64,000 bases of DNA from a virus: IMG/VR virus record IMGVR_UViG_3300030228_000019; one strand, written 5' to 3'. How positions within the stretch are numbered: position 1 is the stretch's first letter; each line of letters begins with the position of its first letter. The notes under the pieces were generated by a model. That model was given only the letters and a program-made list of their open reading frames with translations, made no database searches and had not been told where the DNA came from. This document shows positions 207 to 39,433 of this stretch, one piece after another. Made by a program: the position numbers and the translations under genes.

Positions 207-839
207 ATGGCTGGAATTAAAACAGTTTTGCTCATTATTTTAATAGTGGCAGTAATTTTTGCATATTTGTATATATTTCATCCAAGTTATATTGGTAAAA
301 AATTAACAACTACTACTGTTTTACCATCAAATAATACAATAACTAATGCCTTTAATAATTATACAACAACAGCAGAAAAAGAATTTAATGTTTCTAATTC
401 AAGTGTTGTTTCAATTTTGCCAAACAAAGAACCCTATTTATTAAATGAGGTTCTTGAGTCTAATCCCAACCCAATACTTATTATCAATTATACTTATAAT
501 GGAAAAATATATCAGTTACCACAATGGTTTTCTCTATCATTTTCAAATGTAACAGCAAATCTTCCAAATTTTAATGGTCAACATGTTCAATTTTTATTTT
601 TTATGAACAAAACAGCAGCAATAAATTATACTGGAAATCCAGCTAATAGCACACCAATGATATTTAACTACAGTGTTGCTGTGAATGGAACTACTTATAA
701 ATTTACATTTATAAATAATAAAAATAATAAAATAATATCTGTCCTTTCAATTCCATTTAATAAACATCAAGTATTTTATACAATTGGTTTTGAATATAAT
801 AAAACTGTTTATTTAATTCCAGACATAGCAATTGGTTAA
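207..839 (+). CDS. Membrane-anchored secreted protein
   Basis: N-terminal TM helix; Asn/Thr-rich with many N-x-S/T sequons. Confidence 0.8.
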   Translation: MAGIKTVLLIILIVAVIFAYLYIFHPSYIGKKLTTTTVLPSNNTITNAFNNYTTTAEKEFNVSNSSVVSILPNKEPYLLNEVLESNPNPILIINYTYNGKIYQLPQWFSLSFSNVTANLPNFNGQHVQFLFFMNKTAAINYTGNPANSTPMIFNYSVAVNGTTYKFTFINNKNNKIISVLSIPFNKHQVFYTIGFEYNKTVYLIPDIAIG

Positions 840-36113: not shown

Positions 36114-36184
36114 GCTTGGGTGGTGCATGGAAGCATTGAAGGGTTGTGACTCTTCAGAAGTGGAATCCTTTTCCACCCCAAGCT
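36114..36184 (+). tRNA. tRNA-His(GTG)-like, atypical
   Basis: Acceptor GCTTGGG/CCCAAGC, D stem GTGC/GCAT, loop TTGTGAC with one extra base, T stem GTGGA/TCCAC with non-canonical loop ATCCTTT. Confidence 0.7.
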
Positions 36185-36187
36185 TAA

Positions 36188-36272
36188 GGTGGTTTATCAA
36201 AGTAGACAAATGAAGTTGATTCAAAATCAACTGGATTTAGTTCCTTCAGAGGTGCAAATCCTCTAACCACCA
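36188..36272 (+). tRNA. tRNA-Leu(CAA)
   Basis: Acceptor GGTGGTT/AACCACC plus A, anticodon arm GTTGA-TTCAAAA-TCAAC, long variable arm, T arm AGAGG-TGCAAAT-CCTCT. Confidence 0.85.
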
Positions 36273-36996: not shown

Positions 36997-37368
36997 TTTT
37001 GTCTATTTTTATACAAAAAGTTACCCTTATATTTTTATAAAAAAGCTGTTTTTAGTATTTTTGTAATGGTAATTTCAATAATAAATGACATTATTTAATG
37101 AAGATTATTGCCATTTTTCTAAAATGGCTATAATTAAGCAAAATAAGCCCTAGAATCAATTTAGTTTATTACCCACTATTCTTTTGGGGTATTCAAATAA
37201 AATGCAGCACAGGTCAAAATTAAGCAATTATGGGGATTCTAGTGGAAGCTTATAATCTCACAAGAACCATAAAATAATATAAAACAGTTAAACCAACCCT
37301 AATTAGATAAAAATAATCAGTCAATATTTGGTTAATTTAATTTAGTCAGAATAATTATAAGCAAATAA

Positions 37369-37407
37369 TGGTCAAGTATAAGTTGGTCAAATATATAAGA
37401 TGGTCAA
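37369..37407 (+). repeat. Three TGGTCAA direct repeats, 15-17 bp spacing
   Basis: Copies at 37369, 37384 and 37401. Confidence 0.75.
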
Positions 37408-37810
37408 ATATAAACTATCAGTTATAAAATAGATTTGATTAGATATTATATATACATAATTATATAAGACCAAGTTATAGCCCATCTTAAATTAGATATT
37501 ACTAACCCTCTAGAATCCACACAGTGAGCAGGAATGGCACCTAGAAACTCTTATCTTTTTTATGGTAACAAAATATTATGCAAATAGATTAAATGACAGC
37601 CTGGATGAAATTAAGGGCATTTATAGCAATGAAAGAAACCCTGGAAAATAAATAGTGAAAAAACTGGACTGAAAAATACTCTAATTAGGGGATTAAAATA
37701 TTTTATTTGTATAATAATAAAGATAATGCCATAAAATAGATAAAAATATGTTATATAATGCTATAAAATAGGTAAAAATATTACCTGAAGAGGAAGGGTG
37801 GCTCTTTGCA

Positions 37811-37842
37811 CAAGCTTTCTCACTTAAAAGGGAGAAAGCTTG
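37811..37842. repeat. Perfect 11-bp inverted repeat CAAGCTTTCTC-N10-GAGAAAGCTTG
   Basis: Read directly; followed by a 9-bp inverted repeat at 37864-37887. Confidence 0.85.
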
Positions 37843-37910
37843 ATATTATAAACTAAATCTGTTAAAGTTATATTTTTCTATAACTTTGATTAATTAACTT
37901 AATTTTTTAT

Positions 37911-38010
37911 TTACCAGTCTATTTCTCTTTCTATTCAAATTCCATTTTTATGAAAAGTCATTACCAGAGTAATTCTCTCTCTAATCATATTCCATTTTTA
38001 TGGAAGATTT
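37911..38010 (+). repeat. Two tandem 50-bp repeats (39/50 identical)
   Basis: TTACCAG...TTCCATTTTTATG unit; inverted copy at 38241-38290 matches copy 2 at 43/50. Confidence 0.85.
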
Positions 38011-38119
38011 TAATAAAAAGTGAAAAACCATCTGATTCAGAATTAAGATTTGGCTATTTGGAACACACATATACAAGTATATAATATATATAGTATAGAT
38101 GGATTGAGTTCCCAAATCA

Positions 38120-38150
38120 ATGGTCCCTGCACATATAGTGCAGGGACCAT
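38120..38150. repeat. Perfect 13-bp palindrome ATGGTCCCTGCAC-ATATA-GTGCAGGGACCAT
   Basis: Read directly; centre of the larger symmetric structure. Confidence 0.95.
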
Positions 38151-38220
38151 CCATTTAAGGTCTCAATCTATGTTAACTATATATATATCCTTCTTGTATA
38201 TGTCCCAAAAAAGTAGCTAA

Positions 38221-38260
38221 AATCTTCCATAAAAATGGAAAATCTTCCATAAAAATGGAA
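38221..38260 (+). repeat. Tandem 20-mer AATCTTCCATAAAAATGGAA x2
   Basis: Exact reverse complement at 37990-38009. Confidence 0.95.
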
Positions 38261-38493
38261 AAGGTTTAGAGATAAAAATACTCTGGTAAAAAAATGTATA
38301 AAAAGCTTTTTATATATTGATTAATCAGGTAATGTAGCAGCCCTTCCTCTATTTCAATCCAGTTCACACCCAGACACCCTGTCTTTCAGGAGGAAGCAGC
38401 CCTTTTTTGCCATAATAACATGCCAACTCTATTTGCCAGTAAAAATAAACCAATTAGCTCACCATTACTTTATTTAACAGTTTACTATATTAT

Positions 38494-38673
38494 GAGTCAT
38501 TATTTAATTAATCAAATAATTTGAGTCATAAATAATAGGAGTCATATTATAATCTGTCACCCTAAATTGATGACCTATATTTATGTTGATATAATAGGTT
38601 GGCAATATAATGTGTGATAATATATGTGCTATAATATTATTATGACTCATATTATTATGACTCATATTATTAT
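38494..38673. repeat. GAGTCAT x3 facing ATGACTC x2 (the latter in a tandem 15-mer)
   Basis: Copies at 38494, 38523, 38539 and at 38642, 38657. Confidence 0.8.
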
Positions 38674-39433
38674 CAAATCAAATTTACTGGCATATAATGC
38701 TTTAGTTTGGAGTTCTATTTAATATATTCAGGTAAACCTATTTTTATTAAAAATATAATAATAAAAGAGAGCAAACTAATGGATTGTTTTGAAAAATCCT
38801 TCATATCTGAAAAAACAGCCTTCTCTTCTACAATATTCAAATTTGAATATTTACTTTACTACAAGCTCTCTCTCTCTATTCTACATGTAAAAAATGCCAT
38901 TTTTTCAATGTGGGTAAAAATTCACCTATTGTTTTAGCCAAATACCTACCCTTTTTTGCTAATTTTTCAAATTAATTGATTTTCTCTCTATAAAATAAGG
39001 TTTCTGAAATTAATACAATTTTCACAAAAATTAGATTAAAATTAATCTGGTTTATCAATGTAATACTGCAACAGTTTCTCTTAAATAATTATCTGGCATT
39101 AATTCTTTAATTGGCTGGCTTTCTAACTTTGTTAGATTTATAAAGAAATAAAGCTTTTTATAATAATTACCTGCCTATTACAAAAGCTGGTCAATAAAAT
39201 ATATAACCTGTTTTTTATATGCTTTTATATTGTTTTATAGTTTGTTCTCAAAACTTTACTATCAGTTTAATCCTGTATCTTTCAATTTTTTAATGATTTC
39301 TTTTTTATTATAAATACTATTTTCTAAAAGTTCTGGCATATGGTTAATTCTTCTCTTTCATAATCACATTTTTTGTTTAGGTATTTGAACAACTATTTTT
39401 AAGGTGTTGTTTAATTAAATAATTAATGATTAA

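What the first reader, a model, noticed from the sequence alone, without database searches (positions are those of the whole stretch)
37789..38350. Large position-symmetric imperfect palindrome with 50-bp repeats around a perfect GC-rich hairpin
Seen: centre 38135; 13-bp perfect arms (38120-38150); GATTGAG/CTCAATC both 33 bp from centre; CATATACAAG/CTTGTATATG both 67 bp; AAGATT/AATCTT at 90/91 bp; then 50-bp units in opposite orientation (37911, 37961 versus 38241) and AGAGGAAGGG/CCCTTCCTCT (37789/38341). The sequence between matched blocks has diverged while spacing is kept, and AT-only tracts flank the hairpin. Inference: a two-fold symmetric protein-binding platform such as an origin, oriT, or a resolution or packaging site; the Hjc-like resolvase could act on a cruciform here. 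Gene orientation does not switch at this point, so a bidirectional origin is not supported by that test.
Basis: partly seen in the sequence, partly recalled or inferred. Interest (0 to 1): 0.72.

Follow-up and report, generated by a model that had tools for sequence, protein, structure and literature searches.

The report
Twin antipodal palindromes, probable replication sites
The palindrome is real, and its 90-bp core occurs twice, inverted and almost exactly opposite each other, on a ~119-kb circular CG-free archaeal-type extrachromosomal element from acid mine drainage, which makes the pair the best candidate for this unknown element's replication origins.

Summary
A 66-nt-arm imperfect palindrome (38067-38203) is centred on 38135 around a perfect 13-bp GC-rich stem. 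It is the strongest mirror symmetry in the window (z 7.2; DNA fold z -10). Contigs from other samples span it, so it is not an assembly artefact.

New here:
- The window belongs to a closed circle of about 118.8 kb with no CG dinucleotide. It encodes PolB, a PriX-like primase subunit, FEN1, Topo VI and Mre11-Rad50, but no recognisable initiator.
- The inner 90 bp (38091-38180) has a second, 100% identical, inverted copy 59.1 kb away. That splits the circle 49.75/50.25 (chance about 0.005).
- Each copy lies in one of the two longest non-coding stretches, between locus-specific inverted repeat arrays and next to a shared 62-nt GC-rich hairpin.

Best reading (about 0.4): twin two-fold-symmetric replication sites, either two origins or an origin plus a terminus.

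Rivals: a two-copy palindromic mobile element, a 2-micron-like inversion site, or an RNA gene.

Limits:
- Skew and gene-orientation tests were inconclusive.
- Conservation in relatives could not be tested.
- The Hjc link is unsupported.

This scan noted comparable paired origin-like modules on other DNA (e1-3460001).

The parts
36997..39433 (.). Non-coding stretch of 2.4 kb that holds the whole feature. It is the longest in the 118.8-kb circle.
   Evidence: No ORF of substance in any frame, stop to stop. Largest gap genome-wide. No Rfam family and no terminator-like site.
38067..38203 (.). Full imperfect palindrome: 66-nt arms, 77% complementary, 5 nt between the arms, centre 38135.
38091..38180 (.). 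90-bp core. It is identical to a second, inverted copy at L140:4277-4366 (about position 97,200-97,289 of the circle).
   Evidence: blastn 90/90 with sharp edges. Exactly two copies and no degenerate ones.
38120..38150 (.). Perfect 13-bp GC-rich stem (ATGGTCCCTGCAC / GTGCAGGGACCAT) with loop ATATA.
   Evidence: A run labelled RNA (X7) also holds a form with the loop flipped to TATAT (table 7).
38078..38098 (.). Left (TA)n-rich tract beside the core; candidate unwinding element.
   Evidence: Nearest-neighbour stability is in the least stable 0.04% of 20-bp windows of the circle.
38178..38192 (.). Right (TA)n tract plus TATATATCCTT. That 11-mer recurs beside copy 2, displaced by a 25-nt indel.
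   Evidence: 5-7 of 500 shuffles reach the score.
37911..37960 (+). 50-bp unit L1, with degenerate dyad TTCCATTTTTATGAAA at 37940-37955.
37961..38011 (+). 50-bp unit L2, with exact dyad TTCCAT-N4-ATGGAA at 37990-38005 and TTACCAGAG at its outer end.
38219..38238 (-). Partial 20-bp copy of the unit, with an exact dyad at 38225-38240.
38239..38289 (-). Inverted 50-bp unit R: dyad at 38245-38260, CTCTGGTAA at 38281-38289, 88% complementary to L2.
   Evidence: The exact dyad occurs nowhere else in the window or the circle.
38336..38405 (+). GC-rich hairpin 'A element' (CTTCCTC...GTCTTTCAGGAGGAAGCAG, then T6). It is shared with locus 2 in direct genome orientation, 205 and 265 bp right of the two cores.
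   Evidence: (0 of 500 shuffles).
37789..37803 (.). Outer 15-mer, inverted partner of 38336-38350 (13 of 15). The pair is not equidistant from the centre.
38491..38666 (.). Array of five TATGA(G/C)TCATA palindromic sites, operator-like.
   Evidence: 9 strand-matches against 2.4 expected; 0 of 100 shuffles.
37723..37781 (+). Two 27-nt direct repeats (93% alike), spaced 32 bp.
   Evidence: D4.
37811..37842 (.). Separate perfect 11-bp hairpin CAAGCTTTCTC / GAGAAAGCTTG.

Best explanation
The palindrome is one of two copies of a cis-acting replication site on a circular extrachromosomal element of about 118.8 kb, a virus or megaplasmid of an acid-mine-drainage archaeon. I think the most likely arrangement is a pair of bidirectional origins. 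The variant in which one copy is the origin and the antipodal copy is the terminus is included in this reading.

Proposed mechanism (all inferred, none shown):
1. The two-fold symmetric 90-bp core, with its GC-clamped 13-bp stem and mirror-placed GATTGAG/CTCAATC blocks, is bound by a dimeric or double-ring factor. Binding may be helped by cruciform extrusion.
2. The (TA)n tracts immediately beside the core melt first.
3. The flanking inverted arrays, four TTCCAT-N4-ATGGAA dyads at locus 1 and 15-bp TGACAATATTATATG repeats at locus 2, bind accessory or initiator proteins that bend the DNA and load the helicase.
4. The element's own PolB, PriX-type primase, FEN1 and Topo VI then replicate it.

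Shown: the structure, its two identical inverted copies, their antipodal placement in the two longest non-coding stretches, and the locally unstable flanks.
Inferred: every functional step.
For: 1. The structure is far beyond chance and is the top symmetry of the whole circle.
2. A second copy is 100% identical over exactly 90 bp, symmetric in extent about the palindrome centre (+-44 bp), with unrelated flanks.
3. The circle closes through overlapping contigs from several assemblies. The copies split it into arcs of 59,110 and 59,712 bp. Two random points fall this close to antipodal about 0.5% of the time.
4. Both copies sit in the two longest non-coding gaps of a genome that is 86% coding. 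They are more than 1 kb from any gene start, which argues against a simple promoter-operator role.
5. Both copies are bracketed by inverted repeat arrays, as in archaeal ORB-DUE-ORB origins, although the array sequences differ between loci.
6. The (TA)n tract beside core 1 is in the least stable 0.04% of 20-bp windows. The flanks of core 2 are in the lowest 0.5-0.9% at 40-100 bp.
7. The element carries its own replisome genes, so it needs an origin: PolB, PriX-like, FEN1, Topo VI A and B, Mre11-Rad50 and SF2 helicases.
8. The 50-bp unit holds the words TTCCA, TGGAAA and CTCTGG in the same order as P. furiosus ORB1 (PMC1904270).
9. After controlling for gene strand, the best phase of a two-site AT-skew model coincides with the palindromes (|t| 3.06).
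Against: - No initiator gene (Orc1/Cdc6, MCM, Rep, primase-helicase) was recognised next to either copy or anywhere in the parts scanned.
- The neighbours of the two loci are not paralogous.
- Cumulative GC and AT skew show no V-shape at either site.
- The AT-skew phase match does not survive permutation (p 0.13).
- Gene orientation converges about 6 kb to the right of each palindrome instead of diverging from it (p 0.09).
- At the 100-bp scale locus 1 is not especially melt-prone (19th percentile).
- The ORB-like words have non-canonical spacing and are absent from locus 2.
- 100% identity with sharp edges is also what a recent insertion or gene conversion would give.
- Conservation in relatives could not be tested.
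Confidence: 0.4

Rival explanations
1. A small non-autonomous palindromic mobile element, like a MITE or the GC clusters of yeast mitochondrial DNA, that inserted twice into AT-rich intergenic DNA. On this reading the larger symmetry and the repeat arrays belong to the target regions.
For: - The block is 100% identical over 90 bp with sharp edges and essentially unrelated flanks.
- It is an imperfect inverted repeat end to end.
- TA stands at both edges of an 85-bp inner element in both copies.
- Relative to the shared A element the core is inverted between the loci, as independent insertions would allow.
- It is a GC-rich island in 74% AT spacer DNA.
Against: - There are only two copies and no degenerate relics in 118.8 kb.
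- The k-mer depth of the core unitig is at most about twice that of its flanks in four runs.
- The hairpin has no match in 185,579 species genomes or in IMG/VR.
- No transposase was seen in the Pfam hits on the element.
- At locus 1 the flanks continue the palindrome about the same centre, with an 11-nt exact mirror match.
- TATATATCCTT recurs beside both copies.
- Antipodal placement (p about 0.005) and occupancy of the two longest non-coding gaps are unexpected for random insertion.
- A TA at each edge is weak evidence in DNA this AT-rich.
Confidence: 0.17
2. A pair of inverted recombination sites that flips one half of the circle relative to the other. This would work like the inverted repeats of the yeast 2-micron plasmid, where inversion during replication gives double rolling-circle amplification, or like chloroplast and HSV-1 isomerisation.
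For: - The two identical copies are in inverted orientation and divide the circle into near-equal halves, as in the 2-micron plasmid (PMC3147054).
- The site has 13-bp inverted arms around a short asymmetric AT spacer, like FRT or lox in outline.
- The element encodes Mre11-Rad50 and a weak Hjc-like ORF.
Against: - No tyrosine or serine recombinase was recognised.
- The perfect-arm spacer is 5 nt, while known sites have 6-8.
- All six assembled junctions from four JGI assemblies are parental, and three assemblies run through both copies without breaking.
- Copy 1 carries a private SNP (38172 G>A) in three of the four assemblies that cover it, so the copies are not being homogenised.
Confidence: 0.12
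3. A structured small RNA gene, or a transcription signal, present in two copies, perhaps acting together with the neighbouring A hairpin.
For: - The hairpin is strong.
- The A element ends in a T6 run at locus 1, as archaeal terminators do.
- A run labelled RNA holds the stretch.
Against: - There is no Rfam match beyond chance.
- The RNA-labelled run is kept as contigs and cannot show transcription. It may be a duplicate of a DNA data set.
- The DNA-level mirror symmetry extends into (TA)n tracts and flanking arrays, which an RNA gene does not need.
- The core and the A element have opposite relative orientation at the two loci.
Confidence: 0.08
4. A telomere-resolution, packaging or conjugative-transfer (oriT) site.
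For: - Palindromic targets are typical of protelomerases and relaxases.
- The element has a VirB4-type cluster.
Against: - The palindrome has an odd centre and is imperfect.
- No protelomerase, relaxase or terminase family was hit.
- The flanks are not inverted copies of each other beyond +-68 bp, so this is not a hairpin-end or concatemer junction.
- Two antipodal copies are not expected for pac, cos or oriT.
Confidence: 0.05

Closest known systems
Archaeal chromosomal and plasmid origins: inverted ORB elements flanking an AT-rich unwinding element, beside orc1/cdc6 (PMC4010727, PMC1904270)
   Same: Non-coding AT-rich region. Repeats in inverted orientation bracket a melt-prone centre. The 50-bp unit shares the words TTCCA, TGGAAA and CTCTGG, in that order, with P. 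furiosus ORB1.
   Different: The dyad spacer is 6 nt, not 1, and CTCTGG lies 20 nt from the dyad, not 5. There is no G-string and no adjacent or recognisable orc1/cdc6. Locus 2 lacks these units. A GC-clamped hairpin at the centre is not part of the ORB scheme.
Baculovirus homologous regions (hrs): dispersed repeats with an imperfect palindrome core that act as origins and enhancers on a circular dsDNA genome of about 130 kb (PMC4535591)
   Same: Several near-identical imperfect palindromes in AT-rich non-coding regions spread around a large circular dsDNA genome. Dimeric-protein recognition is implied.
   Different: hrs are tandem arrays of the palindrome-bearing unit and number 5 or more. 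Here there is one core per locus and two loci, exactly antipodal, in an archaeal-type element. No IE1-like factor is known.
Herpes simplex virus oriS and oriL (my own knowledge, not tested here)
   Same: Palindromic origins with an AT-rich centre or flanks and inverted initiator sites. oriS is present twice in inverted orientation.
   Different: The oriS copies lie inside large inverted repeats. The HSV centre is AT-rich, not GC-clamped. The UL9-type origin-binding helicase is not recognised here.
Yeast 2-micron plasmid inverted repeats with FRT, and double rolling-circle replication (PMC3147054)
   Same: Two inverted identical sequences split a circle into near-equal halves. The site outline is 13-bp arms plus a short spacer.
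   Different: The repeat is 90 bp, not 599 bp. There is no Flp-like recombinase, the spacer is 5 nt, and no inversion isomers appear in the assemblies.
MITEs and the GC-cluster palindromes of AT-rich yeast mitochondrial DNA (my own knowledge)
   Same: A short GC-rich palindromic block with sharp edges, flanked by TA, in AT-rich intergenic DNA.
   Different: Only two copies exist, none elsewhere in public genomes. There is no transposase, and the placement is antipodal.
Bacillus phage SPP1 oriL and oriR, and the paired origin-like modules noted earlier in this scan (e1-3460001; a lead only)
   Same: Two origin-like modules far apart and in inverted orientation on one replicon.
   Different: The SPP1 sites are initiator (G38P) binding boxes next to or inside the initiator gene. 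Here no initiator is known and the shared part is a palindrome.

Membership tests
Archaeal ORB-type origin | Repeats in inverted orientation flank an AT-rich unwinding element in non-coding DNA. | tested here: met
   Units at 37911-38011 against 38219-38289 around 38012-38218 (76% AT outside the core). Locus 2 has other inverted arrays around its core.
Archaeal ORB-type origin | ORB sequence: TTCC..GGAA dyad with a spacer of about 1 nt, plus a G-rich string at fixed distance. | tested here: not met
   Compared with P. furiosus ORB1-3 as printed in PMC1904270. The same words occur in the same order, but the dyad spacer is 6 nt and the distance to CTCTGG is 20 nt. There is no G-string.
Archaeal ORB-type origin | An adjacent orc1/cdc6 (or whiP) initiator gene. 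| tested here: not met
   No Cdc6/AAA_22/Cdc6_C hit in any window ORF of 100 aa or more, nor in the precomputed Pfam lists round the circle.
Archaeal ORB-type origin | Initiator binding, autonomous replication activity, or a replication bubble at the site. | not testable with these tools
   Needs ChIP, EMSA, 2D gels or marker-frequency analysis on raw reads.
Baculovirus-hr-like dispersed palindromic origin or enhancer | Several near-identical imperfect palindromes in non-coding regions dispersed on a large circular dsDNA genome. | tested here: met
   Two identical 90-bp cores 59 kb apart on a 118.8-kb circle.
Baculovirus-hr-like dispersed palindromic origin or enhancer | Each region is a tandem array of the palindrome-bearing unit. 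| tested here: not met
   There is one core per locus. The tandem units beside it are of other sequence families.
MITE or palindromic mobile element | Terminal inverted repeats and a target-site duplication. | tested here: inconclusive
   The block is an imperfect inverted repeat throughout. TA stands at both edges of both copies, but the flanks are (TA)n-rich, so this could be chance.
MITE or palindromic mobile element | Many dispersed copies, including diverged ones, and copies in related or host genomes. | tested here: not met
   Exactly 2 copies and no relics. No hit in viral contigs or genome contigs. Unitig depth is at most about twice the flanks. The metagenome collection was not scanned for the hairpin.
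MITE or palindromic mobile element | A cognate transposase with matching ends. | tested here: not met
   No transposase family among the Pfam hits on the element. Many ORFs are orphans, so this is not exhaustive.
Tyrosine-recombinase site (FRT, lox, dif type) | 11-13-bp inverted arms around a 6-8-bp asymmetric spacer. | tested here: inconclusive
   The 13-bp perfect arms are met. The spacer is 5 nt, or 7 if the arms are counted as 12.
Tyrosine-recombinase site (FRT, lox, dif type) | A recombinase gene and recombinant (inverted) junctions in the population. | tested here: not met
   No Phage_integrase or Resolvase hit. All 6 assembled junctions are parental. Raw read pairs were not examined.
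Protelomerase target (telRL type) | A perfect even-centred palindrome and a protelomerase gene. | tested here: not met
   The centre is odd (loop ATATA) and the arms are 77% complementary beyond 13 bp. No such family was hit.

The most novel reading that the evidence does not exclude
An uncultured family of CG-free circular archaeal elements of about 100-125 kb replicates from two identical GC-clamped palindromes held exactly opposite each other. They would act either as synchronised twin origins or as an origin coupled to an inverted partner that drives 2-micron-like double rolling-circle amplification, using an initiator of no known family. This would be the first such geometry described for an archaeal replicon.
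Probability: 0.2. Interest if true: 0.8.

Novelty: new variant of a known kind. Interest (0 to 1): 0.62.

Why it matters
Replication origins of archaeal viruses and megaplasmids are almost unmapped. Elements associated with DPANN/ARMAN-type communities cannot be cultured, so sequence-defined origin candidates are the only handle available.

This work yields a precise pair of sites (38091-38180 and its antipodal twin), defined candidate protein-binding dyads, and a closed 118.8-kb genome on which marker-frequency analysis of existing acid-mine-drainage reads can test the idea directly.

The exact antipodal placement of two identical palindromes, if functional, bears on how replichore balance or inversion-driven amplification is organised outside bacteria and yeast plasmids. 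The element has an archaeal replisome, no recognisable initiator and no CG dinucleotide at all, and it appears to be undescribed.

Tried and rejected
- Assembly artefact: rejected. Independent contigs span the centre.
- Chance: rejected.
- Hidden gene in the spacer: no ORF in any frame.
- Known RNA: only miRNA-model noise at E 0.2-1.
- Terminator: none found.
- Relatives by neighbour proteins: the 236-aa and 141-aa neighbours are orphans.
- Plasmid collection: no DNA match.
None had dyads or CG depletion. The scan was wasted, so the hairpin was never scanned against metagenomes.
- Genome and viral scans: none for the hairpin. The A-element 19-mer gave six chance hits in bacteria.
- Relatives through the RNA-ligase-like gene: three 21-kb pieces were fetched. 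Gene order differs and they hold no comparable palindrome, so conservation remains untested.
- Replication geometry: cumulative skews show no V. The strand-controlled AT-skew phase coincides with the palindromes but has permutation p 0.13. The gene-orientation L/2 periodicity has p 0.09, with convergence about 6 kb from the sites. All of this is inconclusive.
- Fusion of two replicons: no paralogy between the half-circles or between the neighbours of the two loci.
- Linear hairpin-ended genome or concatemer junction: rejected, because the two arcs have different genes and the flanks are not mirror copies.
- Transcription from the RNA-labelled run: cannot be judged from contigs.
- Loose end at 38001: a chance 16-mer shared with 45,416.
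- Literature: no paper on this element was found.
Full report
**Observation.**
- A perfect 13-bp GC-rich stem lies at 38120-38132 and 38138-38150 around the loop ATATA, centred on 38135.
- It sits inside a 66-nt-arm palindrome (38067-38203, 77% complementary).
- GATTGAG/CTCAATC lie at +-33 bp, CATATACAAG/CTTGTATATG at +-67 bp, and AAGATT/AATCTT at 90 and 91 bp.
- Outside this lie two direct 50-bp units (37911, 37961), an inverted unit (38239-38289) and a 20-bp partial copy (38219-38238).

Ungapped symmetry about 38135 is the strongest in the window (z 7.2 at radius 70) and in the whole replicon. Folded as single-stranded DNA the core region scores z -10.0 and the 400-nt region z -13.4.

Strict equal spacing ends at about +-91 bp. 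The 50-bp unit pairs are centred on 38125 and 38115, and the outermost pair (37789/38341) lies 346 and 215 bp from the centre.

The structure is not an assembly artefact. Logan contigs from other samples run across the centre, and four JGI assemblies carry it.

**Setting.** The palindrome lies in a 2.4-kb stretch (36997-39433) with no ORF in any frame, no Rfam family and no terminator-like site. The stretch is a mosaic of repeat families.
- Four TTCCAT-N4-ATGGAA dyads occur nowhere else.
- Five TATGA(G/C)TCATA palindromic sites lie at 38491-38666.
- There are two 27-nt direct repeats, a separate 11-bp hairpin, and a GC-rich hairpin at 38336-38405 that I call the A element.

The window is 25.5% GC and has no CG dinucleotide, where 1,041 are expected. 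No whole genome is held for it. Nine acid-mine-drainage runs contain it.

**The replicon.** I walked outwards with exact-protein look-ups. The contigs overlap into a closed circle: the genes reached to the right of the second locus run on into the 210-aa gene at window 207-839. The composite length is 118,822 bp, in line with JGI contigs of 116.4-118.2 kb.

The circle encodes:
- PolB, a PriX-like primase subunit and a TFB-like zinc-ribbon protein;
- FEN1, Topo VI A and B, Mre11-Rad50, and SNF2 and DEAD-type helicases;
- nucleotide-metabolism enzymes, a VirB4/pilus cluster, adhesins, three tRNAs and many orphans.

No ribosomal genes or other core housekeeping genes were seen. No Orc1/Cdc6, MCM, Rep, recombinase, relaxase, protelomerase or transposase family was hit (and the precomputed Pfam lists).

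PolB has relatives at 40-61% identity on contigs of 79-125 kb, one of them binned as Micrarchaeaceae. Two fetched relatives are also CG-free. I read this as a family of large archaeal extrachromosomal elements. The closed 119-kb circle without housekeeping genes speaks against that.

**The second copy.** The hairpin occurs once more in the circle. Window 38091-38180 equals L140:4277-4366 at 90 of 90 positions. The edges are sharp, the extent is symmetric about the palindrome centre, and the flanks are essentially unrelated.

In genome orientation the second copy is inverted and centred at 97,245. The two arcs are 59,110 and 59,712 bp, that is 49.75% and 50.25%. Two random points lie this close to antipodal about 0.5% of the time.

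Both copies occupy the two longest non-coding gaps of a genome that is 86% coding. Copy 2 is also bracketed by inverted arrays, but of another family: 15-bp TGACAATATTATATG repeats. One or two units of that family also occur at 38603-38623 in locus 1.

Both loci carry the A element 205 and 265 bp to the right of the core, in direct genome orientation. The core has therefore been inverted relative to the A element at one locus. An 11-mer, TATATATCCTT, follows the core at both loci, displaced by a 25-nt indel.

There are exactly two copies and no degenerate relics. The second copy explains the branch points and loose ends seen when contigs were laid on the region.

In three of the four assemblies covering copy 1, that copy has a private G>A at 38172. 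All six assembled junctions are parental. One run also holds a form with the 5-nt loop flipped.

**Interpretation.** A two-fold symmetric, locally melt-prone, non-coding site, present as two identical copies at opposite poles of a self-replicating circle, is best read as a replication site. It would be either twin bidirectional origins or an origin and its terminus (confidence about 0.4).
- The (TA)n tract at 38078 is in the least stable 0.04% of 20-bp windows. The flanks of core 2 are in the lowest 0.5-0.9%.
- The arrangement of inverted arrays around a melt-prone centre matches the archaeal ORB-DUE-ORB layout (PMC4010727).
- The 50-bp unit shares TTCCA, TGGAAA and CTCTGG in order with P. furiosus ORB1 (PMC1904270). 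Its spacing is non-canonical, there is no orc1/cdc6, and locus 2 lacks the units. Membership in the ORB class therefore fails even though the working principle may be alike.
- Functionally the nearest analogues are the dispersed palindromic origins of large viral circles: baculovirus hrs (PMC4535591) and HSV oriS/oriL (my own knowledge).

**Tests that did not decide.** Cumulative skews show no V. With gene strand controlled, the best phase of a two-site AT-skew model falls exactly on the palindromes (|t| 3.06), but permutation gives p 0.13. Gene orientation shows an L/2 periodicity (p 0.09), with genes converging about 6 kb to the right of each site, which would suit termini better than origins. 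No paralogous initiator-like neighbours exist.

**Rivals.**
- A two-copy palindromic mobile element (0.17). It explains the perfect identity, the sharp edges, the TA at both ends and the inverted core. It fits poorly with the copy number, the absence from 185,579 genomes and IMG/VR, the continued symmetry of the flanks of copy 1, and the antipodal placement.
- A 2-micron-like inversion or amplification site (0.12; PMC3147054). It fits the geometry and the 13-bp arms, but lacks a recombinase, has a 5-nt spacer, and shows no isomers in the assemblies.
- An RNA gene (0.08), or a telomere, packaging or oriT site (0.05). Both have little support.

**Not done.** Conservation in relatives is untested. 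My one metagenome scan went to a pattern that proved too loose, and the contig look-ups reached only 21-kb pieces of relatives with a different gene order. Raw-read depth and junction analysis on the closed circle is the decisive next computation.

Noticed in passing
window 1-64000; L134, L138, L140, L136, L153, L154: The CG dinucleotide is completely absent from the whole 118.8-kb circle (0 found; 1,041 expected in the window alone). It is also absent from two relatives from other samples whose PolB is 54-55% identical (0 found against 338 and 380 expected). The trait is therefore family-wide.
   Followed up: partly
window 1-64000 plus L134, L138, L140, L141, L146, L148: The window is part of a closed circle of about 118.8 kb with an archaeal replisome and repair set (PolB, PriX-like, FEN1, Topo VI A and B, Mre11-Rad50, TFB-like). 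It has no housekeeping genes and no recognisable initiator. PolB relatives lie on contigs of 79-125 kb, one binned as Micrarchaeaceae. It looks like an undescribed family of large archaeal extrachromosomal elements.
   Followed up: partly
L138:13681-13761 (about position 84,140-84,225 of the circle): Six tandem 14-bp units, each with the palindrome TTGATAATCAA, lie in a 94-nt gap between convergent genes. This is the second strongest symmetry in the genome and a candidate centromere-like or operator array.
   Followed up: no
window 38133-38137: One run (X7, labelled RNA) holds contigs in which the left flank and stem are followed by TATAT, not ATATA. This is a flipped hairpin loop, at a depth like that of the standard form. 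It could be a strain variant of one copy or a template-switch product. No assembled contig shows it.
   Followed up: partly
window 38405-38452: A 48-nt indel separates strains: the stretch is absent from L003 and L006. It lies just right of the A element.
   Followed up: no
window 38172: G>A in copy 1 in all four runs laid and in three of the four JGI assemblies covering it. Copy 2 keeps G, so the window's strain is the one with two identical copies.
   Followed up: yes
window 36114-36184: ARAGORN calls an odd tRNA-like gene with a 2-nt 'anticodon' directly upstream of tRNA-Leu(CAA) at 36188-36272. Rfam does not call either. It could be a tRNA fragment or an attachment-site remnant.
   Followed up: no
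A further adhesin paralogue lies at about 70.3-72.5 kb of the circle.
   Followed up: partly
L140:3300-3900 (about 97.7-98.6 kb of the circle): The non-coding stretch of copy 2 continues into about 600 nt of GC-richer sequence. JGI calls no ORF there and Rfam finds no match. It might be an unknown structured RNA.
   Followed up: partly
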